Part shown: in pieces, positions 1 to 30,606 of the stretch
Layout of the letters: the number at the start of each line of letters is the position of its first letter
How positions within the stretch are numbered: position 1 is the first letter of the stretch
DNA from: a virus
Taxonomy: Duplodnaviria; Caudoviricetes
IMG/VR virus record: IMGVR_UViG_3300045999_010702
Location: 1 to 33,989 of that record
Length of the DNA stretch: 33,989 bases
Reading direction: 5' to 3' (one strand)
Position numbers and translations under genes: made by a program
The notes under the pieces: model-generated
What the model saw: the letters and a program-made list of their open reading frames with translations, nothing else
What the model was told of the DNA's origin: nothing
Database searches by the model: none

Positions 1-31
1 GAATCGCGGGTCCCGGGGCCGGGAGGGACCC
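1..31 (-). other. Putative genome terminus / cosQ-like packaging termination signal
   Basis: The minus strand ends GGGTCCC-TCCCGGCCCCGGGACCCGCGATTC. Lambda cosQ is GGGTCCT and lies about 30 nt before the cosN nick. GGGTCCC (8-14) and GGGACCC (25-31) also form an inverted repeat. That the window edge is the genome end is inference. Confidence 0.35.
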
Positions 32-240
32 AAGTTTGTGTAAACATATAAACAACGTTTGCGATTGCAAGGCGTTTCAAATACTTCCTACATTCTGAGG
101 ATAATTAATGCAAACGAAACGCGACCGGCAAAGCGCACGGCCGCGCATGCAAACGCGCGCCGGTAGGTGTCAGCTACTGGCGCGCACAATAAAGGCGCCG
201 TTGTTAGCGGCGCCGTTGTGGTTTCGTTTGGCGGTAACGC

Positions 241-1302
241 TTACCGTGTGAGAATTAGGCGGCCGTCCGCTAGTTTGATCGTAGGCGCGTCCGCGATCGT
301 GAAACGTTCCGCGATCGTTCGATCCGCACCGCGTGCGCGTTTCTCCCGCAATATCACGGCCGAACCGGCCGGATCGTTCCAACGTGCATCGCCGGTCGCG
401 TCGCCGTCGACCGCCGGCAACGTAACGGCGTCGCCGTAGGTTTCGATCGTGACTGATCGCAGCGGCGCCGCGTCGCGCGCAAGACGGACCGGGAATGCAA
501 CGCGCAAGCCGGCGCGCACGGCCGCGATCGCATCACGGCAAGCGGTCGACCGGTCCGCTGCAAAGGATGCGGTGACGTCTTGCCAACCGGCGGCAAGCCA
601 GGCAAGCGGCGACGTCGGCGCGTCGACGCCGGCCTTTAGGTATTCATAAAAGCGCACGGCGCCGCGCGCGCGCATCGGCGCGAACGTTTCGGCAAGATTC
701 AACGCGTCGCCGGTTTCAACGTCGACGCCGAACCGCCGGCGGATTGCGACCGCGTCGGCCGGCGTTATGGGTGCAACGCGTCCGGCCCAGAACGTTTCGT
801 CAGTTCCGCACGTCCGCACGGCGCACGGCATGCCAAGACGTTCCGCACGCGCCAGTTCGGCCGCGATCGCATAAACCATGGCGCGCGTATACGTAACCGG
901 ATCGGCGACCATGGCAAGCGTTCGCCGTCCGCGACACGCGGCAACGTCCGTCGACAATCCGCCATGGCCGGCGCTTGCTAGGCAGCCTGCAATGCATCCG
1001 GCGGTTGCATGCATGCACCCGTTGTGACGGCGCGCCAGTTCGGCGGTCCCGGTACGTTCCGCAAGCGCCGCCAGTTCCGGCAAGTAACCGCGCGGCGCGA
1101 TGCTCGCAACGGTTCGCGGATCGATCGCGCGTGCTAATTGGCGTTGCGGTAACGCGTAGTGCATGGCGTTATACGTTCCGCCGGCGGCCGTGTGCACGGC
1201 CTTAGCGGACGTTGTTGTTAGCAACGAACCTAAGGTCAGTTCGAACGTTTCAAGCATGCCGGCAACGTCGGCCGGCAAGCGATGCGGTGCGTTTGTGCGC
1301 AT
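241..1302 (-). CDS. Gp88-like / radical-SAM-like Fe-S phage protein
   Basis: C-x6-C-x3-C (GCMHATAGCIAGCLASAGHG), plus VRTCGTDE, FYEYLK and DGDATGDARWNDP, which match the family motifs RLNGTSD, FYDYTK and DGDxxDLRFLDP. A TTACCGCTTACC motif lies upstream of the ATG. Confidence 0.7.
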   Translation of the reverse strand: MRTNAPHRLPADVAGMLETFELTLGSLLTTTSAKAVHTAAGGTYNAMHYALPQRQLARAIDPRTVASIAPRGYLPELAALAERTGTAELARRHNGCMHATAGCIAGCLASAGHGGLSTDVAACRGRRTLAMVADPVTYTRAMVYAIAAELARAERLGMPCAVRTCGTDETFWAGRVAPITPADAVAIRRRFGVDVETGDALNLAETFAPMRARGAVRFYEYLKAGVDAPTSPLAWLAAGWQDVTASFAADRSTACRDAIAAVRAGLRVAFPVRLARDAAPLRSVTIETYGDAVTLPAVDGDATGDARWNDPAGSAVILREKRARGADRTIAERFTIADAPTIKLADGRLILTR

Positions 1303-1326
1303 GGTTTTAGGTAAGCGGTAAGGGTT

Positions 1327-2052
1327 TTAGACAATGCCAAGCAAGCTCAGCCACGAATCCGGCGCGTCAGGCTCAACGCGCGACCCGTCCGGCGTTTCGG
1401 CGACGCCGTCAAGACTCCACTCCATAAGCTCGGCCGTTGTTGGAACGTCGACCCATTGGCCGCGCCACAGCAAGCGAAACACCGGCGTTAACGGGTCCGG
1501 ACCCTTAAACGCCGCGACGTCGCCGTCCATCCGTAAAGCTTTGCCGGTTTCGGGATTGCGCAAGCGTTCGCGGCCGTTGTTTAAGCGGCGCGCGAATCGA
1601 ACGCGACCGGGACCGGCCGGCGTCATCGTTGGCGTTGCCGGGAACTGCTCGGCACCGTCACCGTCGACGGCCGCGACGCGTTCGCGCATGCGGATTGCAT
1701 CGGCCGACGGTCCGGGACCGGTCGCCGGTTCGGCGCCGGTTACTTGCAACGACCATTGGCGCGCATGCTCCCATTGCGCAAGCGACGGCGCCGAAACGCG
1801 CGACGCCGGCAACGCGGCCGCGAACGCGTCATCCCACAAGCGCGCAAGCGCGATCGCGTCGCGCAATGGTCCGCGGAACGTTCCGGCCATCAATCCGTGC
1901 ACGTGGCCGGAGATGACCCATAGGCCGCGCGTTTGCTTGCCGTCGCGTACGTGATTAACCGGCGCATGCACGGCAAGCGCGCGACCGCGCCAACGAGCCG
2001 GCGCGTCGATCGTGGCGCCGTCCGGGAGCGCAAGGGTAACGGTTGCAGGCAT
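1327..2052 (-). CDS. Hypothetical early protein with conserved C-terminal phage domain
   Basis: Start moved to ATG 2052 (MPATVTL), which follows the upstream stop at 2057 and a CCCTTACCGC motif. The C-terminus PTTAELMEWSLDGVAETPDGSRVEPDAPDSWLSLLGIV resembles a recurrent small phage domain. Confidence 0.7.
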   Translation of the reverse strand: MPATVTLALPDGATIDAPARWRGRALAVHAPVNHVRDGKQTRGLWVISGHVHGLMAGTFRGPLRDAIALARLWDDAFAAALPASRVSAPSLAQWEHARQWSLQVTGAEPATGPGPSADAIRMRERVAAVDGDGAEQFPATPTMTPAGPGRVRFARRLNNGRERLRNPETGKALRMDGDVAAFKGPDPLTPVFRLLWRGQWVDVPTTAELMEWSLDGVAETPDGSRVEPDAPDSWLSLLGIV

Positions 2053-2056
2053 GGTT

Positions 2057-2362
2057 TCAAGCGGTAAGGGGAACAATGGGCGCCAGTTCGGCGGATCCGA
2101 CGGGATACGCGTAGGCGTTGCCGCCGTCAAGTGACAGCGCAGCGCCGATCAAACGCCAATCGGCACCCATAGCGCGATTGAAGCGTTCAACCACGGCAAG
2201 CGCGGCCGCGTCCGGACCCTCCGCGTACGGAACGGTCGCGCGGAATCGATCGGCGGCCGTTGTACCGCGTTTGATCACGGCAACCCATTGCGAACCGCGC
2301 GTGTCAGTCGCGCCGCTATAGGTGACGGTGCAACCGGGAACGTATCTAAAAGGGGAATGCAT
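2057..2362 (-). CDS. Hypothetical early protein
   Basis: ATG 2362 (MHSPFRYVPG) is preceded by CTTACCCTTTACCGCTT. The gene packs tightly between its neighbours. Confidence 0.65.
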   Translation of the reverse strand: MHSPFRYVPGCTVTYSGATDTRGSQWVAVIKRGTTAADRFRATVPYAEGPDAAALAVVERFNRAMGADWRLIGAALSLDGGNAYAYPVGSAELAPIVPLTA

Positions 2363-2390
2363 GGCAGCTAAGCGGTAAAGGGTAAGCGTG

Positions 2391-3026
2391 TCAGTCGCGC
2401 GCCAGTTCGGCATCGATCGCGGCGCGCATGCCGGCGGCGCGTGCAATGCCGCGCGCGTGCGCGGCGTCACCGTCCGCGCGAATCGCAGCAGACTGCGCGC
2501 GCGCAAGGTCGGCAAGACTCACACGGCGACCGGCGGCCGCGTCGGCGCGAATCGCGAGCACAGCCGCGACGGCGTCGGCGTCTTCCCCGGGCAGAATGAC
2601 CGGCGCGACCGGACCGGCGGCGTGCGCGACGGCGTCCGCGATTGAATCGAACGCAACGGCCGCACCGGAGCGACCGCGCGCAACGTAACCGCCGGCGACC
2701 GTTTCAAGCGGCCGAACATATGGAATGCCGCAAGCGTGCAACGTACCGGCGTCGGCATGGTTGCCGCGTTCGAGCGCAACGACCGGCGCGACGTTCCATC
2801 CGTCGCCGGCGTCCGCGACCGCGTCACAAACGCGGCCGATCGATTCGGCAAGACGGCACGCGGCGTCGGCGTCCGAAACGTTGCCGGCGCGTTGCGCTGA
2901 TTCCAGCGACGCGCGGTAAGCGGTTTCGGTGCGCACAACGTCCGAAACCCACGCGAACGGCACAACGTCCGCATGCGCCACGCCGGCGGCGTGCGCGGCG
3001 GCTGAAACGGTCTGAAAGGTCAGCAT
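2391..3026 (-). CDS. Hypothetical Ala-rich early protein
   Basis: ATG 3026 (MLTFQTVS) is preceded by TTACCGCTTACCGCTTGCC. First gene of the terminal operon. Confidence 0.65.
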   Translation of the reverse strand: MLTFQTVSAAAHAAGVAHADVVPFAWVSDVVRTETAYRASLESAQRAGNVSDADAACRLAESIGRVCDAVADAGDGWNVAPVVALERGNHADAGTLHACGIPYVRPLETVAGGYVARGRSGAAVAFDSIADAVAHAAGPVAPVILPGEDADAVAAVLAIRADAAAGRRVSLADLARAQSAAIRADGDAAHARGIARAAGMRAAIDAELARD

Positions 3027-3052
3027 GGCAAGCGGTAAGCGGTAACGCATCC

Positions 3053-3082
3053 ATATATAAGGTCGCGCGCGCCGCATAGCAA
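3053..3082 (-). promoter_or_regulatory. Possible sigma70-type promoter for the terminal operon
   Basis: TTGCTA-N17-TATATA on the minus strand, about 27 nt upstream of ATG 3026. The -10 is imperfect. Confidence 0.4.
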
Positions 3083-3308
3083 GCCATGCATGGGGCACGT
3101 ATGCCGGATTGTCACGCGGACGCGTTGCCACTAGCACAACGGCCGGCGCGACCGTTACCGCATGCCGGCCGCGTTCGCGTGCGTCGGCGCGTGCACCGGT
3201 AAGCGTTGCGAACCGCGCAAGCGGTAAGCGTTGCAAACCGTGCGCACCTAACTAACGCGAACACCGCGCGCAGTTAACAACCCGAACCCGCACAGGGTAA
3301 GGGTCGCG

Positions 3309-3347
3309 AACACCCCGCGCGTTTGCGTTTAAAACACCCCGCGCGTT
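3309..3347. repeat. 15-bp direct repeat AACACCCCGCGCGTT x2
   Basis: Exact copies at 3309-3323 and 3333-3347, with a partial copy near 3260, in a non-coding region. Confidence 0.85.
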
Positions 3348-3685
3348 CGTGTTACCGAACCGCGCAATCGCATTGTCGCTGTCATTAACTCACCGCGAGT
3401 TCGTGACACCGGCCGCTGCGTTGACGATTGCATGCTGATGCAAACCGTGCGACGCTGTATATAAAGAATAGGAGGCGTGTGCGCGCTCGGCGGCGCTCGG
3501 CGGCGCGGCGGCCGGCGGCGCGGCGGCGGGGCGTAGGCGGGCATGCTTGGCTAAGCTTAAATGCATTTTTTCCTATATAAAAACCGACCCCCCAGAGTTC
3601 TTTAAAATTTTCTGCACATGCCGCGCGCGGTAAAAACCGCTTACATCCGAGTTCCTGGCCATAAAAAGCGACCGACCCAAAGTTC

Positions 3686-4809: not shown

Positions 4810-4856
4810 GGGACCAAGAGGTAAGCGGTAAGCGGGGCTCGTGCCCCATGCCGTGA

Positions 4857-4897: not shown

Positions 4898-4942
4898 AGT
4901 CTCATTGAGACTCATTCCAGCGCAGTGAGTCTCAATATGAGA
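4898..4942. repeat. Nested inverted repeats of GTCTCA/TGAGAC
   Basis: AGTCTCA-T-TGAGACT (4898-4912) and an 11-bp inverted repeat ATTGAGACTCA (4904-4914) / TGAGTCTCAAT (4926-4936). Confidence 0.8.
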
Positions 4943-5261
4943 TCTGCACGGTTGCGATGCCATCCAGCGGCACACCAAGGCGATGCGCAGCGCCGGCGCT
5001 GAGATCGATCGAATTGCAATCACAGCGGTCCCTGATCGGCACCACAAGCACCCGCCCTCGATGCCGCACCGTCACCCGCGTTCCACATGGCAACCACGGG
5101 TGCGCGGCGCTGATGCCCCAGTGCTGATAAGTGCCGCCGCAGTACTCAACGCGGCCGTGATACCAGCCGTCGTAAACGGTTGCGGTAACTGGCCTCGCCT
5201 CCGCCGGCACTGATGCCAAGTGCTGAAGAATTGCGGCAAAAAAGATCAATGTGCGTTTCAT
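4932..5261 (-). CDS. RlpA-like double-psi beta-barrel protein with signal peptide
   Basis: ATVY..WYHGR, SAAHPWLPCGTRVTV, IRDR and IDLSAGAA motifs; hydrophobic N-terminus ending AEA. Confidence 0.8.
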   Translation of the reverse strand: MKRTLIFFAAILQHLASVPAEARPVTATVYDGWYHGRVEYCGGTYQHWGISAAHPWLPCGTRVTVRHRGRVLVVPIRDRCDCNSIDLSAGAAHRLGVPLDGIATVQISY

Positions 5262-5300: not shown

Positions 5301-6023
5301 CTACTTCACCGCCAACGCCCAGAAAGGCGCACGCTTCGACTCACCCAGCTCGCGCTGCAGCTCACGGCACACCACCTTCACGACCACGCCATCGGTCGCG
5401 AACGGGCGGTTCCACAGCTTCCCGGCCTTCCACCGCGAATGCAGCAGCTCAACCTCGTCGATGCGGGTAGTGAACAGCGAATCCACGCAGTCAAACCCAA
5501 GCCCCTCAAGCCGCGCCATCGCGTTGACCTCTGTGAGCTCCTGGAAAGCGCCTCCGAATGCCGTGAAGGTCAAACCACCTGAACCGCCCTTCATACGCCT
5601 TAGAGCCGTTGCTGGCGCGCTCTGACGGCCATCATGCCCCCACAGTTCACCACGCACGTCCAGTACGCCGCGCTCACTCACCTGCGCCGGCACCAGATCA
5701 CGCAACACCGCCATGCAGTCCCGGCCGCTACGGGTCCACGCCGCCGCAAGCTCACCGCCCACGTACCGCAGCCCCACAGCAGCGCCGTCAATCTTCGGCT
5801 GCACAATCACAGGCGCACCCGTCCACCAGTCCTCCAGCGGGCAGTTATCCAGCGACAGCAGCGCGGTACCACCGCCTGGCTCCTGCAGCTCTGGTGCAAA
5901 CGGCGCCACAGCACGCAGCTCAGCCACCAGCGCATCGAACTCCGCGTCCGACATCACAGCCGCACCAGCGCGATAGGCCGCATCTGCCTGTCGCACCTGC
6001 TTGCGTAACGACTCAACCGACAT
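5301..6023 (-). CDS. NAD-dependent DNA ligase, adenylation domain only
   Basis: Subdomain Ia (AYRAG..MSDAEFD), LLSLDN, KIDG, TR, VRGE, DGVVVK and P.WALAVK, then a stop. No OB, Zn, HhH or BRCT domains. Confidence 0.85.
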   Translation of the reverse strand: MSVESLRKQVRQADAAYRAGAAVMSDAEFDALVAELRAVAPFAPELQEPGGGTALLSLDNCPLEDWWTGAPVIVQPKIDGAAVGLRYVGGELAAAWTRSGRDCMAVLRDLVPAQVSERGVLDVRGELWGHDGRQSAPATALRRMKGGSGGLTFTAFGGAFQELTEVNAMARLEGLGFDCVDSLFTTRIDEVELLHSRWKAGKLWNRPFATDGVVVKVVCRELQRELGESKRAPFWALAVK

Positions 6024-6047
6024 AACCACTAAGCGATAACACCGCGA

Positions 6048-7161: not shown

Positions 7162-9771
7162 TCAAGTGATACTTACGTGAGACTCATGGGGTTCCAATTG
7201 CTCAAGCGGCACAAGGGTGGCTCGAGACGCTCCCATGCCCTTAAAACGAATTGGCGAGCTCGCTGCGGATGCTCCCGGCACCCTCCGAAGAGCTTGTCGA
7301 TATGCATTCCCTGCCCATGGCGTGTCCTTCAAAATCGCCTGCAAATTCGTGCTGCTATTCGCAATAGCAAGCTCTCGGTGCATGGCCCGCAGCCCATAGC
7401 GACCGAGAATGGTTTCAATTTCATCCGATGCCTGGTCCCTGCCCGGCAGCGCATAAACGACCCCTCGCCTGGCGAGCTGGATCAGCTCCATCACGCTCAT
7501 GCGCTTGCCCCCTTCAACCTGGATCAGGTGCTGGAGCACGTAGTTGAGGCACTTGTTCTCGTCGGCGTCTTCAGCGTCGATTTCGCGCGACTGCCAGTCC
7601 ATCTGATCGATCCACTGAAGGGCTTGCTCGAGCGACAGCTCTCCCCCGCCGTCCGGCTCAAGGCTCCAGGCTCCAGCGAGGAGGGTGCCGTACTGATCAC
7701 CAAAGCGCTGGCCAAAGCGTCGTGACAAAGCAGTGGCGAGGGTGCGGGCGTTTTTGCGGATGGTGGGGATGTGCTTAAGGGTGCGAGCCACGAGAAGCCT
7801 GCCGTTCTCTTCGGTGCAGGTATCGAGGATCTCCTGCTCGAATTCAGCCCAGTCGTCTCGCTTGGTCTCATCGCGTCTCAAGCTGAGAACACAGAAGCGA
7901 TCGAGGTCAGCCCGCTGCACCAAAGCGACGTTGATCGAGGAAACGCAGAACATGGAGCGGATCTCGAAGGTGTTGGATCCGCCGGTTGCGGTGCCTTTAT
8001 AGATCTTTCCGCCTTCTGAAGACGCGATCCGGGCCAGCGAAAGAATGTTCTGAACAATTTGCTTATCTTTTTGTTCGTTCTGCTCGAGTTCGTCAAAGAC
8101 GATGGGGATGGCGTCAGATCTGAGTTGACCGCGCAGGCCGGCTTCGGTGGTGCCGCCGGTAGCGCCTTCAAACATGCCACCGAGGAGTGGCTTCATAAAG
8201 GTTTTGAGGATGGTGGTCTTACCGGTGCCAGCGCCACCAGTGATCCATATATGAGGTCTCCAGGTCAGCGCACCACAGACCGGCGCAAGAACGATCCAGC
8301 CGAGGAGGAGCTGAGCGGATGCGGGAGTTTCCCAGCGGAAGCGTTCGGCGATATTGGCGATGGAGCGAGCGAGATCGTCTAAGAGGGCATCGGAGCCTGG
8401 GCCATCAATGGCTTTGGCGTTTTCGTAGAAGTAGTAGCTGCGGAAAGAGCTGGGAAGCTTGGTGATGGCGGACGAGGTGCCATCGATCACGAGTCGATTG
8501 CCGAGGTGAAGGATGACGCGATCTGCATCGGCCCATGCACCGCGACCGCGCACGCGGGAGGGATCGTAGATGCCTTGCGCCATGCAGGTACGCATGATGT
8601 GATTAGCAGCCGAGTCCCAGTCGATTCGTCCCTTTTCGTCGGCGAAACCATCAATCCACCATTGGATGTCCGCTAGCTGAAAGAAGTGATTTTTGTTGTG
8701 CTGTGCGGCAGTTAGGGAGAGAACTTGGCAGGACTCGCGTGGGAGGTAGAAGTAGGTGCCGCGATCATGACCGAGGAGGAGGAAGGGAAGTGTGGAGCCA
8801 GCGGGAGGTGCTTCGGGTTCAGCGGCTGCTTGCTTGAGGGCTGGCGGTGGCTCGATGACTCGCTTGGGTTGGCGGTAACCGTCTTTGCGAGCCCAGTACC
8901 AGAAGGAGGCAGCGTTGATGCGATTGAAGGTTGATGCGGCGACCTGATCGATTTCAGCGAAGAGCGGGCTGTGGCGCTTCATGAGGCGCTTGGCATCTTC
9001 GACGGTGCCACCTGCTTCTTCGCAGGCTTTGATGAGAGCCCAGAGCAAATTCCGATAAAAGGGATATTTTTTAGTCTTAGGAATAGCGGCGGGGATGTGA
9101 TTCAGCGCTTTCTCGATTTCAGCAAGATCTTGCTTTTCGTACTGCGTAAATGATTGTGCTTGCTGGATTTCTTGCTGGAGTTCTTCGGTGGGTATGGCGG
9201 AATCAAGTTGATCGTATGTGTAGTACTTTTCAGAGTTGTGGATAATGCTTACCTGATCAGATAAAGCACCGGAACCATCTGCATAGAAAGTACCTGGCAG
9301 TCTTAGAACACGCGAAAGATTTCGTGTCGTTTGATCTGCTTGTGTGTATTCGAGCAGGCGAGCTTGAAGTGGTAGCCACTGATCTGGTGAGATCGTGTCG
9401 CTGAAGATCCAGTAATTGTGAATTGATTTGCCGCCTGTTGCGACTTGGAGCGTTGGCTCTGGAAGGCCGAGCTCTTGCCAGGCTGTGATCTGCCATTCGA
9501 CAGGGCGATCGTCCCATTCGCAGAAGATTGCGCGGCAATGGGTGATGTCGCTGTCTTTGTCGCCCCCGTCATTGATGACGACGTAAATGCCGCGACCCTC
9601 TTGCTGCCACTGTTGGATGAGTGCTGGATCGGGGCCGCCCTTGCGACCGGAGTCTCCTTGCTTGGCGGGGTTTTCGGAATGGTAAAAAGCACGCAGGCGG
9701 ATGGCACCTGCGGGCTTGCGCAGTGCGCGAATGAAGGCGCGTGCCTCATCGCGATCAAATTGTTTTTGCAT
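7162..9771 (-). CDS. Primase-helicase (RepB-like AEP primase + PriCT-like domain + P-loop helicase)
   Basis: GIYVVIN, FCEWDD, TGGKSIHNYW and SRVLRLPG primase motifs; GGAGTGKT Walker A; IVFDELE Walker B. Confidence 0.9.
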   Translation of the reverse strand: MQKQFDRDEARAFIRALRKPAGAIRLRAFYHSENPAKQGDSGRKGGPDPALIQQWQQEGRGIYVVINDGGDKDSDITHCRAIFCEWDDRPVEWQITAWQELGLPEPTLQVATGGKSIHNYWIFSDTISPDQWLPLQARLLEYTQADQTTRNLSRVLRLPGTFYADGSGALSDQVSIIHNSEKYYTYDQLDSAIPTEELQQEIQQAQSFTQYEKQDLAEIEKALNHIPAAIPKTKKYPFYRNLLWALIKACEEAGGTVEDAKRLMKRHSPLFAEIDQVAASTFNRINAASFWYWARKDGYRQPKRVIEPPPALKQAAAEPEAPPAGSTLPFLLLGHDRGTYFYLPRESCQVLSLTAAQHNKNHFFQLADIQWWIDGFADEKGRIDWDSAANHIMRTCMAQGIYDPSRVRGRGAWADADRVILHLGNRLVIDGTSSAITKLPSSFRSYYFYENAKAIDGPGSDALLDDLARSIANIAERFRWETPASAQLLLGWIVLAPVCGALTWRPHIWITGGAGTGKTTILKTFMKPLLGGMFEGATGGTTEAGLRGQLRSDAIPIVFDELEQNEQKDKQIVQNILSLARIASSEGGKIYKGTATGGSNTFEIRSMFCVSSINVALVQRADLDRFCVLSLRRDETKRDDWAEFEQEILDTCTEENGRLLVARTLKHIPTIRKNARTLATALSRRFGQRFGDQYGTLLAGAWSLEPDGGGELSLEQALQWIDQMDWQSREIDAEDADENKCLNYVLQHLIQVEGGKRMSVMELIQLARRGVVYALPGRDQASDEIETILGRYGLRAMHRELAIANSSTNLQAILKDTPWAGNAYRQALRRVPGASAASSPIRFKGMGASRATLVPLEQLEPHESHVSIT

Positions 9772-9911
9772 TACTTAAGGGTAGGTATGGCGGCCTTCAT
9801 GGCCTGATCGATAAGACGGCGGATGAGGGCAGATCGTGTATCGATGTCGCCAGCTTGGCGGTCAAGCCAGGCGACTTGGCGTTCGGGGAGTCGGATGCTG
9901 AGTGGCTTCAA
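9771..9911 (-). CDS. Ribbon-helix-helix (CopG-like) regulator
   Basis: KPLSIRLPERQVAWLD...TRSALIRRLIDQAM. TTG 9911 chosen as start; ATG 9977 is the alternative. Coupled to the primase start. Confidence 0.7.
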   Translation of the reverse strand: MKPLSIRLPERQVAWLDRQAGDIDTRSALIRRLIDQAMKAAIPTLK

Positions 9912-9990
9912 GCGGTAAGGGCGGCTCAGGCGGCATCGTAGCCGGTCCGCGAGCTTTGTGTTACGTTTCGGAGGCATTGTATTTCAACGT

Positions 9991-12335: not shown

Positions 12336-12632
12336 TCAGCTCTGCTCTGGATGGCGTGGTTGATTTTGCCCTAGCCATTGGACGATTGCCCATTCACGGG
12401 TATCGGTCCAGAAGTGCTGAGTGCGATACCAGGTAATCCAGTCGCGATGGCCCTTGGAGGAATTGCAAGCGAGACAGCAGGAGATGACGTTGTGGAGTTC
12501 TGCTGAGCCGCCGAGTGCTTTTGGGATGATGTGATCGAGAGTGCCGGAGCGACCAAGGGATTCGCCGCAGTAGGCGCATTCAAAGTTCCACGCGAGGTGG
12601 ATTTGATCGCGTTTACTTCGAGGAAGGCGCAT
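12336..12632 (-). CDS. HNH endonuclease
   Basis: CAYC...TLDHIIPKALGG...N..SCCLACNSSKG. Confidence 0.9.
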   Translation of the reverse strand: MRLPRSKRDQIHLAWNFECAYCGESLGRSGTLDHIIPKALGGSAELHNVISCCLACNSSKGHRDWITWYRTQHFWTDTREWAIVQWLGQNQPRHPEQS

Positions 12633-14052: not shown

Positions 14053-14195
14053 GTGACCGCCGTTTCGTATTTGCTTTCCCGGCGCTGAACCTTTACGAGG
14101 TGATTATGGCCGTGACTGCGGTTGAAGCCAGGCACAAGCTGATGAATTCAAGCCTTGCGCCTTTTTACGGACAGGCAGTGCTGCTGAACCCATGA
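14049..14195 (+). CDS. Small hypothetical protein (not in ORF track)
   Basis: MSDRRFVFAFPALNLYEVI..., with ATGA overlaps at both ends. Confidence 0.55.
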   Translation: MSDRRFVFAFPALNLYEVIMAVTAVEARHKLMNSSLAPFYGQAVLLNP

Positions 14196-14560
14196 AGCAA
14201 CGCATTTCGCTGATCAAGGAAGACCGTATTTGGGATCTTCGCTTGCAGGGGTATGACTACGATTCCATCTCGCGAATTGTAAATGTGCATCCATCGCTGA
14301 CTGGTGTAATTCGTCGCATTCGTCGGCGCCCACCATTGGATCAAGATCCAATCAAGCGGGGACGCAAGACGGGGTGGATGTCTGACGCGCAGATCGATGA
14401 GATCAAGCGCAGGCGGGCAGGTGGCGAGACGTTGCTATCGATTGCTAGATCATTTGATGTCAGCGAAAGCTGCATCTGTGACATTTGCAAGGGTAGGACG
14501 TATCGCGAACCTGAAAGCAAAGGTTATAGCTTCGATTTTTCTAATCGCTTACGCCGATGA
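14192..14560 (+). CDS. Double HTH DNA-binding protein
   Basis: GYDYDSISRIVNV and GETLLSIARSFDVSESCICDICKGRTY. Confidence 0.7.
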   Translation: MKQRISLIKEDRIWDLRLQGYDYDSISRIVNVHPSLTGVIRRIRRRPPLDQDPIKRGRKTGWMSDAQIDEIKRRRAGGETLLSIARSFDVSESCICDICKGRTYREPESKGYSFDFSNRLRR

Positions 14561-17222: not shown

Positions 17223-17813
17223 ATGGCACAACGATCTCCTTTACCTCCGCTTGAAGTTTTGCAGCAGCACTTCGAGGTTGTTCCTGTCAATGATTTCCAA
17301 ATCGATAGTGGGTTGATTTGGATTAAGCCGACCTTCCACGCTATGAAACCTGGTGATGTAGCCGGCACGTTGGTGCGTAATTGGCGTCAACCACATCGTC
17401 TTGATTGGCGTGTGCGCTTTCAGTACAAGGGCTACCTTGTCTCCAGGGTTATTTATATGCTCCACCACGGGGTCGATCCAGGGGAACTAACTGTTGATCA
17501 TGTTGACCGCAATCCTCTCAACAACAACATTGAAAACTTGGAGCTAGCCACCTACTCAGACCAGACGCTTAACCAACAAATCAGCACTCGCAATACGTCC
17601 GGCGCAAGAGGCGTCAGTTGGTCAGCAGGAGTAAAAAGCTGGATTGCGCAGATTGGCGTAGACAACAAGCTCGTGAAGCTGGGTACTTTCACCTGCAAGA
17701 TTGAAGCGGCTAAGGCGTACAACGATGCGCTGTTGGCAAGATCTCCAGCTCGCTACGAAAGCGTCAAGAACAATTTGGCGCAGGTAAGTTGCGACTGTCC
17801 TCAGTGCAGCTAG
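17223..17813 (+). CDS. HNH-AP2 homing endonuclease
   Basis: VDHVDRNPLNNNIENL, then NTSGARGVSW..W.AQI...LGTF...EAAKAYN. Confidence 0.9.
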   Translation: MAQRSPLPPLEVLQQHFEVVPVNDFQIDSGLIWIKPTFHAMKPGDVAGTLVRNWRQPHRLDWRVRFQYKGYLVSRVIYMLHHGVDPGELTVDHVDRNPLNNNIENLELATYSDQTLNQQISTRNTSGARGVSWSAGVKSWIAQIGVDNKLVKLGTFTCKIEAAKAYNDALLARSPARYESVKNNLAQVSCDCPQCS

Positions 17814-24083: not shown

Positions 24084-24243
24084 CTGCGGCGAAGGCTTTT
24101 ACATCGAAATTGGCGAAGAGCCTGGCATCGGTGAAGTGCGCTATGCAGCTTGCATGCCAGGTGGCGCTATCTGTCGCTATGCCAATGATCTATGGCAGGC
24201 GCAAATTTATATTGAACACTTAAAGGGCAACCGATGCCAGTGA
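24040..24243 (+). CDS. Hypothetical protein
   Basis: Last rightward ORF; CMPGGAICRY..DLWQA. Confidence 0.55.
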   Translation: MADSQETAVPTGAIDCGEGFYIEIGEEPGIGEVRYAACMPGGAICRYANDLWQAQIYIEHLKGNRCQ

Positions 24244-24532
24244 TCCACTCGTAAACCTGTTGCGCGCGATGCCAGCTCCAATGGTGCTGCATTGTCCACC
24301 ACGTCCACAGTGACATGTGACCTTTAGACGCATTACAAGAAAGACAAGCGGGCACGCAGTTCTCAGGAACCGTGAGCCCGCCTTTCGCTTTTGGTTTGAC
24401 GTGATCGATTGTGGTGGCGTGACGACCGCAATATGCGCAGCAACCATGCCAAGCGTCAAAAATTGAAGCGCGAAATCGTTGTTTTGTGACCTTTTTGCTG
24501 ACCAGTTCGACGCCATCGATCTGGTGCATCAT
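24167..24532 (-). CDS. HNH endonuclease
   Basis: CAYC...TIDHVKPKAKGG...NCVPACLSCNASKG. Confidence 0.9.
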   Translation of the reverse strand: MMHQIDGVELVSKKVTKQRFRASIFDAWHGCCAYCGRHATTIDHVKPKAKGGLTVPENCVPACLSCNASKGHMSLWTWWTMQHHWSWHRAQQVYEWITGIGCPLSVQYKFAPAIDHWHSDR

Positions 24533-27439: not shown

Positions 27440-28294
27440 TCAAAGCACGGGCATTTCGTACTCCTTGGTTGTGCCGGCGTAGTGCTTGAAAATAATGTTT
27501 GCAGTGTTACCCGCCCAGGCTGCGATCTGCGTGATCGGAATTCCAGCTTCTAGCCAGCGACTGATTGCAGTGTGGCGAGCATCGTATGGACGATAAACGT
27601 GAGACACCAAGCCGGCTTGATGAAGTTGCACCGCACGTCGCCTAAAAAAGCTTTGAAATGCAAGCCTGTCCCAAGGGAAGACGTAATCATTCTCCTTGGG
27701 GACCTGCGCCAGAATTTCAATGCATTTCTTGTTGAGTGGCACCGAGCGGCGCTTGTTGGTTTTCGTGCTGTTCTTCAAGCCGTGGGTCAGCGTGTAATTC
27801 GAGTGAACAAGCACGCGACTGTCCTTGATGTCGTCCCATCTCATGGCACGCACTTCACCTGTGCGCATTGCGGTTTGAAGCATAAATTCGGCATATAACG
27901 CCCAATTCACGTCGCGATAAGTGAGTTTGGCCTCAAGCGCTGCAAGCAGAATTCCAACTTCTTCGCGTGGAATTACGATTACGTCTTCATCTCGCTGCGG
28001 CTTTTTCGGCATGCGGAAGCTGGCGACTGGGTTACGGGGCAGGATCGCGATGTCTTCCTGCACAGACCACCTGTAAAGACTGCGTACGTACATGGCGACG
28101 CGACGCCCTGAAAGGACTGGATGCTGCTGCAGCACCCAGGTCAAAATCTGCCGCCCCTGTTCAAAATCTTGTACAGGACAGCGGTTGAGCCACTTGGTCG
28201 TTTGCTTGTAGTCGGAAGTGAGGCTCGTTGGGCAGAGCGCGATCGAGCGTTCGGCGACGAACTGCTCCCAGGCTTCGACAAGGGTAATGGACAT
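27440..28294 (-). CDS. Tyrosine recombinase lacking an arm-binding domain
   Basis: TAMRTGE (R), STKTNK (K), YDARHT, AGNT and KHY (Y); about 284 aa from ATG 28294. Confidence 0.9.
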   Translation of the reverse strand: MSITLVEAWEQFVAERSIALCPTSLTSDYKQTTKWLNRCPVQDFEQGRQILTWVLQQHPVLSGRRVAMYVRSLYRWSVQEDIAILPRNPVASFRMPKKPQRDEDVIVIPREEVGILLAALEAKLTYRDVNWALYAEFMLQTAMRTGEVRAMRWDDIKDSRVLVHSNYTLTHGLKNSTKTNKRRSVPLNKKCIEILAQVPKENDYVFPWDRLAFQSFFRRRAVQLHQAGLVSHVYRPYDARHTAISRWLEAGIPITQIAAWAGNTANIIFKHYAGTTKEYEMPVL

Positions 28295-28316
28295 AATGCC
28301 AAAAATAAGCTTAAGC

Positions 28317-28345
28317 ATAATAGCACGCAATAAAAAGCCGGGCAA
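28317..28345 (-). promoter_or_regulatory. Promoter for the recombinase
   Basis: TTGCCC-N17-TATTAT with extended TG, overlapping the upstream terminator. Confidence 0.5.
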
Positions 28346-28614: not shown

Positions 28615-28630
28615 TAGAGAAGGGGACTCG

Positions 28631-29134
28631 TCACCGTGGCTGGTGACTCTCCATGTAGCGAAGAATTGCCTGCATTTCTTCCAGTGTGGCGTCGTTCTTA
28701 AGGAAGTTCGCCCTAGCCGAAATGACCATGACGTTGCCTTTGGTGTAGCCACCATTGGAATCAATGCGATCCAACGTCGGTGCGTTCCAGTTGTCTTTCA
28801 TCGAAACCCTGCCTTGACCGACTGTTGCTTGAAGCGGGATGCCAAGCACAGGGCACAGTTCAGGAATCACGATGTCGTCAACGGTCAAGTCGCAGTCAAG
28901 CCCTCGATCCTTGGCTCTGTTGTTTGCGTTGTACAACAGCTTTTTGCGTGGGTCAATCTTGATGTATTCCTTGTTGCGGCATTCCTTGCAACGTGCGCTG
29001 CGACGATTGCCGTCTGGACCCACGCGGTATGCGCCTGCATGCTTATCTGGCCAGAAGCTGTCAAACGGTAAAAACTGCTGACAGCCACAGCACCAGAGTT
29101 CGCTTGGATCAGGCGATTTAACTGGCGCAGGCAT
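28631..29134 (-). CDS. HNH-type (endonuclease VII-like) homing endonuclease
   Basis: CCGC..CKEC, PELCPVLGIPL and TLDRIDSNGGYTKGNVMVISARAN motifs. Confidence 0.85.
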   Translation of the reverse strand: MPAPVKSPDPSELWCCGCQQFLPFDSFWPDKHAGAYRVGPDGNRRSARCKECRNKEYIKIDPRKKLLYNANNRAKDRGLDCDLTVDDIVIPELCPVLGIPLQATVGQGRVSMKDNWNAPTLDRIDSNGGYTKGNVMVISARANFLKNDATLEEMQAILRYMESHQPR

Positions 29135-30606
29135 CAGGTGTAGACGATCATCAAGGTGCCATCCGACTTGCGATAAACGTCACCGTCTACCAATCCACCG
29201 GCTTTGGCTGCTGTGTTGTCAGCATAAGTGGGCGTGTTGGCAAAATTAAGGATGCGGGAGTTCTTGATCCGCATCGCTTCGGTAGGTGATGACGCCCCAT
29301 CAGCAGTAACGGAGAACACTAGGCGGCCTGGGTAGCTAGATCCAGCAGTCCAAGTCCCTCCATCCCTTTGTGCCTGTATCCACGCAGCATTTACATGCGT
29401 GGCATCGCCAAACATGATATAGCCGAGGTCTTCTGTTGAAGTTGGTCCATTTGTAGTTGTGCAGCAACGCAACACACCAGGACCAGTGGTACCGCTGTAT
29501 CCTTGGAGAAGGAGTGTTGTATTGCTAGACGTGGAAGACGTACCAACTAAGAGGCGCTTCGATGTATCAATGGTGACTGCTGCGCTGCCGTTTTGAATAA
29601 TGTCAAAGCCGCCAGCGTAGTTAGTTCCAATGGCGGCGTTCTGTGTGGTGGAACCACCGCGCAACTCCATGTGGCGAGTGCCGTCGCCAACACGAATAAT
29701 TGGCGCCGAAGAATTAAGGACTTCTAGTGTGGTGTTAACTGTAGAAGTGCCAATCCCTACCGCGCCTGTGTTCGAGACAACAAACGCGTCTGTATTCCAG
29801 TTGTTGTTTGATGCTCGCGTTGAAACCCTGAAGTCCCCCCCGTATCCGCTACCGCCGCCAGCACCAACAGCTCGAATACGTACGCGTGCATTTGATCCTA
29901 CAGTTGCGGTTGAATATAGGTACAAATAGTTTTCATTGCCGGTGATAGAAACGTCACCCTGAGCATCCAGAAGGGAAACAGGGCTACTAGTCCCCAGACC
30001 TAGTTTCCCGTCCGATGTGATACGGAGGCGCTCTACTTCATTTGTTTGAATAGTAAAAGGAATGCTAGACCGAGTTTGAATAGAAGCCAGAGAGCCTGTA
30101 TTGTAAAACTCGCAACCAACCCCACTATTTCCAGTCAGGCGCAATGTTGCAGTTGTGCTGCGCTGAATCTCAACACCGCTACCATTGCCAAATCCTGCAA
30201 AAGTAGTGCCAACATTAACATTCCCACTCGCATCCACAAACAACCGCCCCGTACCATTAGTCGAGATGGCTACGTTGTTTGCCGAAGGTAGATAAACGCC
30301 GTTGGTGGGGACACTGCTGCTGGTTGGGATGAACGATGCAGCCGTGCTCGTGCCAGTGGTGACGACGTTCTGGCTGCCGAAGTTGGGGCTGATCTTGGTG
30401 CCAGCAATCGCGGCGCTGCTGTCCACCATCGCATTGGTCACTAGGGACCAATCGGTGTCGTAGTTGGTGCTGCTCGCCTTCCGAAGCACTTGGTTGGCTG
30501 TGCCACCAGCAGAAATTGGGCTGCCCGTGGCGCCTTGCACGCCAGGCACCGCCAGCACGATTTGCGTATCCTGCTGGTCGATAACCGCAATTTGTACGTC
30601 AGACAT
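29134..30606 (-). CDS. Modular tail fibre protein
   Basis: Gly/Ser/Thr-rich; repeated ERLRI.S.G.(V/L)GIGT-type modules; located in the tail cluster. Confidence 0.85.
   Translation of the reverse strand: MSDVQIAVIDQQDTQIVLAVPGVQGATGSPISAGGTANQVLRKASSTNYDTDWSLVTNAMVDSSAAIAGTKISPNFGSQNVVTTGTSTAASFIPTSSSVPTNGVYLPSANNVAISTNGTGRLFVDASGNVNVGTTFAGFGNGSGVEIQRSTTATLRLTGNSGVGCEFYNTGSLASIQTRSSIPFTIQTNEVERLRITSDGKLGLGTSSPVSLLDAQGDVSITGNENYLYLYSTATVGSNARVRIRAVGAGGGSGYGGDFRVSTRASNNNWNTDAFVVSNTGAVGIGTSTVNTTLEVLNSSAPIIRVGDGTRHMELRGGSTTQNAAIGTNYAGGFDIIQNGSAAVTIDTSKRLLVGTSSTSSNTTLLLQGYSGTTGPGVLRCCTTTNGPTSTEDLGYIMFGDATHVNAAWIQAQRDGGTWTAGSSYPGRLVFSVTADGASSPTEAMRIKNSRILNFANTPTYADNTAAKAGGLVDGDVYRKSDGTLMIVYT
29307..30272 (-). 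repeat. Five in-phase TAGN-N7-NCTW sites at fibre module junctions (putative recombination cores)
   Basis: Sites at 30258-72, 29988-30002, 29745-59, 29535-49 and 29307-21; spacings of 270, 243, 210 and 228 nt. Confidence 0.6.

What the first reader, a model, noticed from the sequence alone, without database searches (positions are those of the whole stretch)
100..3550. Terminal 3.5 kb with extreme k-mer avoidance: putative first-injected, restriction-evading segment
Seen: the segment is saturated with CGCG, GCGC, CCGG, GGCC, CGATCG, TGCA and ACGT but nearly lacks GAG/CTC. By hand count there are 0 GAG and 1 CTC in 541-1260, where roughly 25 would be expected from base composition; Glu is coded GAA. 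The bias ends near 3.6-3.7 kb. Established: lambda ejects its last-packaged (cosQ) end first, and T5 first-step-transfer DNA is depleted of restriction sites. Inference: this end enters first and has been purged of motifs typical of asymmetric type I/III/BREX targets while keeping palindromes that hosts commonly methylate. Its genes would then be anti-defence candidates.
Basis: partly seen in the sequence, partly recalled or inferred. Interest (0 to 1): 0.72.

Follow-up and report, generated by a model that had tools for sequence, protein, structure and literature searches.

The report
Phage entry end purged of targets
The last 3.5 kb before the cut site of this lake virus, and the matching block in 56 related lineages, is short of A-T pairs spaced 7 to 10 bases apart (the layout Type I restriction enzymes read) and mostly uses a shrunken set of DNA words, so it is likely the first DNA to enter the cell, likely kept clean by selection until its genes would switch off the host's DNA-cutting defences.

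Summary
The segment (about 105-3544) ends at a lambda-type cos site; 41 of 80 related terminase contigs start at that cut. The bias survives synonymous shuffles. The decisive signal is new: A...T pairs 7-10 bases apart fall to 0.56 of expectation (219 vs 391), with T...A, distances 6 and 11 and the rest of the window normal. That is the spacing of Type I target adenines. It holds in 57 of 57 homologous GP88 genes and is the deepest dip in 5 of 5 complete relatives. The word choice differs by lineage (CG-rich here, CG-poor or CT-rich elsewhere), so GAG loss and palindrome excess are one dialect of a general vocabulary collapse, not kept methylation sites. Best reading: first-entering DNA under selection by many unpredictable Type I and other asymmetric-site systems. 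Entry order and anti-restriction function are inferred; the cos-proximal gene is a weakly radical-SAM-like GP88. It works like T5 first-step DNA but sits at a cos end. This scan noted the same idea before on another genome (e1-10071711).

The parts
4..5 (-). Predicted cos nick (physical right end in lambda orientation)
   Evidence: Window base 4 aligns to the base where relatives' left-end contigs begin; 41 of 80 terL loci start there; L001 and L089 end 13 nt past it
25..31 (-). cosQ-like GGGTCCC, 20 nt before the nick (lambda: GGGTCCT, 23 nt before its end)
   Evidence: Sequence; conserved in L001-L004; lambda right end printed
105..3544 (.). GC-rich (66%) low-vocabulary block depleted of A...T pairs at distance 7-10
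241..1302 (-). GP88-family gene (353 aa), Cx6Cx3C, predicted radical-SAM-like fold; closest gene to the end, transcribed towards it
   Evidence: PF17338 30.5 bits over cut-off 24.4; C96, C103, C107 invariant in 41 of 41; model pLDDT 91.4; best structural hits radical SAM enzymes at Z 6.2 or less
1327..2052 (-). ORF2, 241 aa, no known family; found beside GP88 in 20 of 56 lineages
   Evidence: 196 homologues; no PHROG or Foldseek match
2057..2362 (-). ORF3, 101 aa, unnamed viral family; beside GP88 in 19 of 56 lineages
   Evidence: weak phrog_3199 E 0.0055
2391..3026 (-). ORF4, 211 aa, Ala-rich, variable; in 2 of 56 lineages
1312..3045 (-). Motif TTACCGCTT(A/G) just upstream of each of the four start codons (1312-1321, 2058-2067, 2369-2378, 3029-3045); likely a translation or transcript-start signal, also seen outside the block
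   Evidence: 12 matches vs 1.0 expected; upstream sequences
3480..3620 (.). Inner boundary: GC-rich short repeats followed by an AT-rich tract; similar T-rich tracts at the inner edge in several relatives
   Evidence: by eye; not modelled

Best explanation
The segment is the end block of a lambda-type cos phage (likely host a freshwater Synechococcus/Cyanobium) that lacks the A-T spacing read by Type I restriction enzymes and uses few distinct DNA words; it is likely the first DNA to enter the cell, likely purged by selection so that its genes can be expressed and would then disarm restriction before the unpurged rest arrives. Steps: (1) shown: the block ends at the cos nick, on the cosQ (last-packaged) side only. 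(2) shown: A...T at distances 7-10 is depleted, whatever the lineage's word choice. (3) inferred: hosts carry many changing Type I/IIB specificities, so selection cannot aim at one motif and removes the geometry common to all. (4) inferred: contiguous asymmetric-site systems (IIG, III, BREX-like) add selection against having many different words; rare words are lost, common ones are reused, and each lineage freezes into its own dialect. (5) inferred: the rest of the genome keeps normal site content and no methyltransferase was found, so an early block product must protect it; GP88 is the best candidate, possibly by consuming S-adenosylmethionine as T3's SAM-cleaving enzyme does.
For: Terminal: terS, terL, portal and capsid genes follow the cosQ motif in L002; 41 of 80 terL loci begin at the nick; 17 of 56 GP88 clusters have a contig ending within 45 nt of cosQ. 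Type I geometry: window block 219 A...T pairs at d 7-10 vs 391 expected, rest 6197 vs 6226; pooled 50 blocks 0.48/0.60/0.65/0.76 at d 7/8/9/10, 1.06 at d 6, 1.02 at d 11, flanks 0.90-1.02; only A...T of 16 base pairings is low (0.62); below codon-order shuffles in 57 of 57 GP88 genes, z < -2 in 55; Type I families have 6-9 bp between target adenines, i.e. d 7-10 (PMC12707154 Table 1). One-sided: 0.56-0.77 over the 3.5 kb before the nick, 0.94-1.07 after it (18 clusters); deepest dip in 5 of 5 complete relatives. Vocabulary: 6-mer ratio 0.67-0.71 vs 0.90-0.95 in the window; block below flank in 24 of 25 lineages. REBASE specificities with no site: asymmetric 0.44 vs 0.13-0.19, bipartite 0.60 vs 0.15-0.33, palindromic 0.35 vs 0.29-0.37. 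Selection: 139 synonymous singletons are as off-dialect as random changes (-3.8 vs -4.15), 144 shared ones less so (-1.7 vs -3.4); four-fold sites diverge less in the block (0.22-0.27 vs 0.30-0.41). An abstract model on random strings penalising distinct asymmetric 6-mers gives CG 1.5-1.6, AG 0.5-0.7, CAG 0.1-0.3, AA 1.4-1.6, close to the window. T5 first-step DNA shows the same signs mildly (vocabulary about 0.89 vs 0.98; d 8, 9 at 0.84-0.85). HsdS domains in 61 of 121 genomes of a cyanobacterial family. Endolysin 67% to Synechococcus phage S-CBS3.
Against: Entry order is not measured, and lambda's last-in-first-out rule was challenged in vitro (PMC10287942 abstract). Real REBASE asymmetric motifs are no more absent than the same motifs reversed (17 of 49 lineages), so the contiguous-motif part shows generic vocabulary loss, not a match to known sites. 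No host methylome was available. The model needs a motif pool covering most of 6-mer space; 259 REBASE words or a random 25% pool gave only 0.87-0.94, and with both penalties and synonymous change only it did not reach the observed A...T depth. A...T at d 2-3 is also low (0.74, 0.72) and is not explained. T7's early region and S-CRES1's annotated SAM hydrolase gene show no depletion. GP88's fold match is below the Z 8 level the tool calls distinctive, and L5 and Sansa carry GP88-family genes without the signal. The genes point towards the end, so the whole block must be inside before the operon can be read. The singleton test used 7-8 haplotypes, majority polarity and no control genes (too few rows).
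Confidence: 0.72

Rival explanations
1. The block keeps and gains palindromes that hosts methylate (GATC, GGCC, CGATCG and the like) so as to be modified quickly.
For: 4-base palindromes are about twice as dense as elsewhere in the window; CGATCG 11 vs 1.2 and GATC 1.85.
Against: GGCC 0.80; GATC is as high in the rest of the window (1.76). 19 of 57 homologous genes are CG-poor and 2 are CT-rich; many such blocks have ordinary palindrome density. Palindrome excess appears in the model without any benefit.
Confidence: 0.06
2. A local mutational process (context-biased mutation, slippage or template switching at the genome end) produces low complexity without selection.
For: Direct 8-mer repeats within 30 bp exceed a third-order Markov null up to 12-fold in some lineages (1.3-2.6-fold in the window); tandem arrays flank the block in L187, L231, L269; dialect follows the GP88 tree (7 changes vs 27.7 shuffled).
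Against: New synonymous variants are off-dialect (77% of singletons), not balanced; substitution spectrum is similar inside and outside, and divergence is not raised; no such process predicts loss of A...T but not T...A at exactly d 7-10.
Confidence: 0.07
3. The block encodes a DNA-attacking enzyme and avoids its own targets, as proposed for T5 A1.
For: Dialect is inherited with the GP88 gene and moves between two phage groups; the idea is in print for T5 as a hypothesis (bioRxiv 10.1101/866236 passages).
Against: No single short word is absent across lineages; the shared signal spans four spacings matching host Type I families; the rest of the phage genome would be exposed; no nuclease family was found in the four genes.
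Confidence: 0.06
4. The composition serves DNA mechanics (end of packaging, storage in the tail, ejection) or fast translation, or is a relic of a GC-rich donor.
For: GC rises to about 60-73% in most lineages; plasmid leading regions are GC-rich and codon-adapted without systematic motif loss (bioRxiv 10.1101/2025.04.03.647016, abstract and one section).
Against: Dinucleotide preferences are opposite between lineages (CG 0.3-1.7, AG 0.3-2.1) and preferred codons differ (Leu TTG, CTG or CTC); lambda, S-CBS3, S-LBS1 and a related cos contig without GP88 (L276) have no such block; a Type I penalty alone raises GC in the model.
Confidence: 0.07

Closest known systems
First-step-transfer DNA of T5/BF23 (Tequintavirus)
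   Same: Terminal block of early genes; restriction works only on sites inside it (PMC10644984 passages); mild vocabulary loss and d 8-9 dip measured here; repeat-rich inner boundary.
   Different: T5's block is a 10 kb direct terminal repeat; here 3.5 kb at a cos end with a 12-13 nt overlap. The signal here is several times deeper, GC-rich, and reshapes the proteins. No two-step injection is shown.
Early-injected region of Murciavirus (Autographiviridae) versus Type I Mme2I
   Same: A Type I motif matters only in the first-injected region (PMC12455610: abstract, introduction, discussion read).
   Different: One motif, one host strain, T7-like phage. Here the whole Type I spacing class is thinned in a lambda-type siphovirus, seen from sequence only.
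Genome-wide restriction-site avoidance in phages (Rusinov et al. 2018, PMC6286503)
   Same: Selection against recognition sites.
   Different: That study found no avoidance of Type I or IIG sites genome-wide (passages); here avoidance is local, concerns Type I geometry, and spares palindromes.
T7 Ocr and T3 SAM-cleaving enzyme (gene 0.3)
   Same: Anti-restriction product encoded by the first gene to enter; position like GP88's.
   Different: GP88 is a different fold, untested; T7's 0.3 region shows no A...T depletion.
Pfam PF17338 GP88 (mycobacteriophage L5 gene 88)
   Same: Family match over cut-off; L5 gene 88 also lies about 2 kb from the right end.
   Different: L5's end has no depleted block; function of the family is not described in the one search made.

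Membership tests
Lambda-type cos packaging end | terS-terL(GpA)-portal directly after the site | tested here: met
   L002 gene order and terL matches; phrog_57 and phrog_15 in L096. Seen in relatives; the window stops at the nick.
Lambda-type cos packaging end | cosQ GGGTCC(C/T) about 20 nt before the nick | tested here: met
   window 25-31
Lambda-type cos packaging end | Fixed physical ends with a short cohesive overlap | tested here: met
   41 of 80 terL loci start at the same position; L008/L089 record starts and ends there with 13 nt overlap. Inferred from assemblies, not from virion DNA.
T5-type first-step-transfer region | Long direct terminal repeat | tested here: not met
   Block occurs once in complete relatives G001, G002, G005
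T5-type first-step-transfer region | Injection pauses after the block | not testable with these tools
   Sharp inner boundary only
T5-type first-step-transfer region | Restriction acts only on sites inside the block | not testable with these tools
   No cultured member found: GP88 queries hit only Caulobacter phage Sansa or nothing
Type I target avoidance | Loss of A...T at 6-9 bases between, not T...A, not other distances | tested here: met
   against Table 1 of PMC12707154; d 2-3 is also low
Type I target avoidance | Match to the host's own motifs | not testable with these tools
   Host unknown; HsdS in 61 of 121 genomes of a candidate host family
Radical SAM superfamily (GP88 protein) | CxxxCxxC motif | tested here: not met
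   Cx6Cx3C, invariant in 41 of 41; variant motifs exist in the superfamily (recalled)
Radical SAM superfamily (GP88 protein) | Partial TIM-barrel fold like radical SAM enzymes | tested here: inconclusive
   Top 11 rows are radical SAM enzymes but Z 6.2 or less, rmsd about 5; no Foldseek PDB match at E 0.001
Radical SAM superfamily (GP88 protein) | Fe-S cluster and SAM cleavage | not testable with these tools
   Needs protein work

The most novel reading that the evidence does not exclude
The block is a transferable restriction-proof leader cassette: a GP88 gene that is a new anti-restriction enzyme (a radical-SAM-like SAM sink), carried on DNA that escapes unknown future specificities by dropping the Type I spacing and collapsing its vocabulary, at the cost of rewriting its own proteins. 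The A...T 7-10 dip would then mark the entering end, and the anti-defence genes, of uncultured phages from sequence alone.
Probability: 0.3. Interest if true: 0.9.

Novelty: new variant of a known kind. Interest (0 to 1): 0.74.

Why it matters
Type I sites were reported not to be avoided in phage genomes, because their specificities change too fast. This block shows a way round that: avoid the shared geometry rather than a motif, and only in the DNA that enters first. It gives a simple statistic for finding entry ends and candidate anti-defence genes in uncultured phages, sequence evidence for fixed entry polarity in a lambda-type phage, and a testable role for the undescribed GP88 family.

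Tried and rejected
Amino-acid or codon-usage cause: rejected. UV-type dipyrimidine loss, Z-DNA or other fixed structural preference: rejected because dialects are opposite. Specific match to REBASE asymmetric motifs: not better than reversed motifs. Methyltransferase as protector of the rest: PF01555, PF00145 and PF02086 found in 0 of 5 complete relatives, none among the window ORFs scanned; other families were not searched. Cultured controls without the block: lambda, T7, L5 (last 30 kb), S-CBS3, S-LBS1, S-CBS4 (last 24 kb only), S-CRES1, Sansa (20 kb). S-CRES1's annotated SAM hydrolase lies in a small GC-richer stretch but is not depleted (0.92) and has no homologue in the blocks. ORF2 model is weak (pLDDT 68.6) with no fold match; Atlas gave nothing for ORF4 and only unnamed viral clusters for ORF3; NCBIfam nothing useful for GP88. 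Promoter scan at chance level. Sequencing runs: 24 listed, no RNA holder on record; contigs only, so no ends or expression could be read. Genome-collection scan gave 3 MAG contigs, no prophage naming a host. The GP88 tree is the quick one; the careful search did not finish, and composition may bias it. One miscount of contig starts was redone. Physical ends of the S-CBS4-like group were not located.
Full report
Observation. The counts are right: 0 GAG and 1 CTC in 541-1260 against 26.6 expected. Over 101-3550 GAG/CTC is at 0.18 of expectation, and so are CCC/GGG (0.19), AGA (0.27), AGG (0.28) and CAG (0.33); CG is 1.70, AA/TT 1.64. GGCC is not enriched (0.80) and three palindromes (AGCT, GTAC, CTAG) are low. 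The best segment is about 105-3544, GC 66% against about 54% elsewhere. The bias survives two codon nulls and is present in non-coding parts.

What the window is. A 34 kb fragment of a temperate-looking siphovirus (primase, helicase, ThyX, integrase, endolysin, tail fibres). The endolysin is 67% identical to Synechococcus phage S-CBS3 and ThyX 61% to S-CRES1, so a picocyanobacterial host is likely; runs that hold it are mostly lake water. In relatives L002-L004 the sequence continues past window base 4 into terS, terL, portal and capsid genes. Window 25-31 on the minus strand is GGGTCCC, like lambda cosQ. Of 80 terL loci, 41 start at the base matching window position 4, 9 start within about 30 nt of it, 12 span it and 18 start elsewhere. 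The segment is therefore at the cosQ, last-packaged end. That this end enters first is the usual reading for lambda (recalled), but a 2023 in vitro study found either end leaving first (PMC10287942, abstract only).

Relatives. An alignment of 41 homologues of the end-most gene fetched 71 viral and 80 metagenome loci (80 of 238 kept by the tool). Loci with at least 700 bp of the gene were grouped into 56 clusters; 49-50 had enough DNA for block statistics and 25 had flanks. Nearly all have a GC-rich 1-4 kb block. They belong to two phage groups: lambda-type cos phages and S-CBS4-like phages. The word choice differs: CG-rich and AG-poor in 22 of 57 genes including the window, CG-poor and CAG-rich in 19, CT-rich and AC-poor in 2, intermediate in 14. 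Codon and even amino-acid use follow the dialect (Arg with CG, rho 0.84; Leu with AG/CT, 0.82), and dialect follows the gene tree (7 changes vs 27.7 shuffled; quick tree; composition may bias it). So the lack of GAG is not the rule. What is shared is a smaller vocabulary: 6-mer ratio 0.76 vs 0.91, lower than the flank in 24 of 25.

Restriction motifs. With the Biopython REBASE list, 44% of 343 asymmetric and 60% of 40 bipartite specificities have no site in the window block, against 13-19% and 15-33% in 8 control windows; for 161 palindromic ones there is no gain (35% vs 29-37%). But reversed motifs are just as absent (real higher in 17 of 49), so this part shows generic word loss.

The specific signal. 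Type I enzymes read two adenines on opposite strands with 6-9 bp between them (PMC12707154, Table 1 read; 7-9 in S. aureus, PMC5399793 passage), which on one strand is A...T at distance 7-10. In 50 pooled blocks A...T is 0.48, 0.60, 0.65, 0.76 at d 7-10, 1.06 at d 6 and 1.02 at d 11; T...A is 0.93-1.06; 60 flank windows are 0.90-1.02; both main dialects agree. In the window: 219 vs 391, rest 6197 vs 6226; below synonymous shuffles at d 7, 9, 10 (z -4.3, -4.9, -2.9; d 8 -1.8), and the shuffles themselves are low there, so the proteins have been shaped as well. It is low in 57 of 57 GP88 genes and is the only low pairing of 16. Anchored at the nick (18 clusters, one perhaps a chance cosQ match) it is 0.56-0.77 over the last 3.5 kb and 0.94-1.07 beyond. 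In 5 of 5 complete relatives the GP88 block is the deepest dip (0.54-0.63; all windows away from it 0.87 or more). The one-sidedness is itself an argument for fixed entry polarity. T5's first-step DNA shows a mild version. Lambda, T7, L5, S-CBS3, S-LBS1, part of S-CBS4, S-CRES1 and a related cos contig without GP88 do not show the block; S-LBS1 has a shallow 0.76-0.85 over its first 7 kb. A contig found by the cosQ motif alone again had GP88 and a weaker block (L269).

Selection or mutation. Among 7-8 close haplotypes, synonymous singletons move away from the dialect as much as random changes do, shared variants half as much, and four-fold sites diverge less than in neighbouring genes; the substitution spectrum is alike inside and outside. 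This fits purifying selection on the DNA, with the limits given above. Some short-range duplication exists.

Sufficiency. On random codon strings, a penalty on the number of distinct asymmetric 6-mers gives the window's dialect, palindrome excess included; costs on CG palindromes, other starting points or amino-acid change give other dialects, while small motif pools do little. The 6-mer penalty does not produce the A...T dip, and an A...T penalty does not produce the dialect. Two pressures are therefore needed: bipartite Type I/IIB and, less firmly, contiguous asymmetric systems. The model shows sufficiency only and was not fitted to this sequence.

The genes. All four point towards the end. 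GP88 (241-1302) passes the Pfam cut-off, has three invariant cysteines in Cx6Cx3C, a confident model and weak but consistent radical SAM neighbours (Z 6.2 or less); its viral structural matches are GP88 proteins. ORF2-4 have no known family. The rest of the genome has normal Type I geometry and none of three methyltransferase families in 5 complete relatives, so protection by an early product is inferred. GP88 is present in every block by construction of the search, so its constancy is not evidence. A SAM-consuming role, by analogy with T3 (PMC6286503 passage), is a guess at about 0.3. HsdS domains occur in 61 of 121 genomes of the family of a cyanobacterial MAG that holds such a block (family not named by the tool).

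Known and new. Local protection of first-injected DNA is known for T5/BF23 (PMC10644984 passages) and for one Type I motif in Murciavirus (PMC12455610 abstract, introduction and discussion). Genome-wide, Type I and IIG sites were found not to be avoided (PMC6286503 passages), and plasmid leading regions showed no systematic depletion (bioRxiv 10.1101/2025.04.03.647016 abstract and one section). Nine library searches found no paper on spacing-level avoidance, vocabulary collapse or GP88 function; the library lacks most subscription papers and no supplements were read. An unreviewed note of this scan on another genome (e1-10071711, seen) reached the same Type I and radical-SAM-like reading; it is not independent evidence. 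Added here: the cos terminus and one-sidedness, the 57-gene replication, opposite dialects, the variant test and the model.

Verdict. Real, terminal, and most likely a first-entering, restriction-proofed early block (0.72). New variant of a known kind; interest 0.74.

Noticed in passing
window 5301-6029 and 4932-5261 (-): Short NAD-dependent ligase gene (adenylation domain only) next to an RlpA-like DPBB gene; an earlier scan note (e1-3447000) covers a look-alike.
   Followed up: no
L153:5000-8340, L156:3560-5640: Extreme CT/AG-rich dialect; the GP88 proteins there are 19% Leu and 12% Ser with Thr, Val, Ile depleted: DNA-level pressure rewriting a protein.
   Followed up: partly
L269:4000-5000 and 7250-7800; L060, L066, L067, L075, L078 upstream of cosQ; L187, L231: Long tandem arrays of 13-17 bp GC-rich units between the block and cosQ, and at its inner edge; many assemblies break there.
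   Followed up: no
L100, L106, L123, L099, L153 inner boundary: Repeated near-palindromic AGTACATTTGTACT and GAGAATCATTCTCA elements at the inner edge of the block in both phage groups; candidate regulator sites or injection-pause signals.
   Followed up: no
window 4822-4831, 6030-6039, 9909-9918 (-): The TTACCGCTTA-type motif also occurs outside the block, so it is not specific to it.
   Followed up: partly
L111, L114, L126, L148, L153, L194, L107: The same GP88 block (about 2 kb) sits upstream of ribonucleotide reductase in S-CBS4-like phages with a different terminase; the last 24 kb of the cultured S-CBS4 record show no such block.
   Followed up: partly
window 28616-29556: 99.9% identical over 941 bp to the otherwise distant record G005 (HNH/endonuclease gene and tail-fibre end): recent exchange.
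   Followed up: no
L267:32335-32846 (S-CRES1): Annotated SAM hydrolase gene in a short stretch between an AT-rich tract and a terminus-like motif; annotation not confirmed by PDB or PHROG searches.
   Followed up: partly
pooled blocks: A...T at distances 2 and 3 is also low (0.74, 0.72; flanks 0.87, 0.93); unexplained.
   Followed up: no
window 12336-12632, 14192-14560, 17223-17813, 24167-24532, 28631-29134: Five HNH-type endonuclease genes in 34 kb; integrase at 27440-28345 suggests a temperate lifestyle.
   Followed up: no
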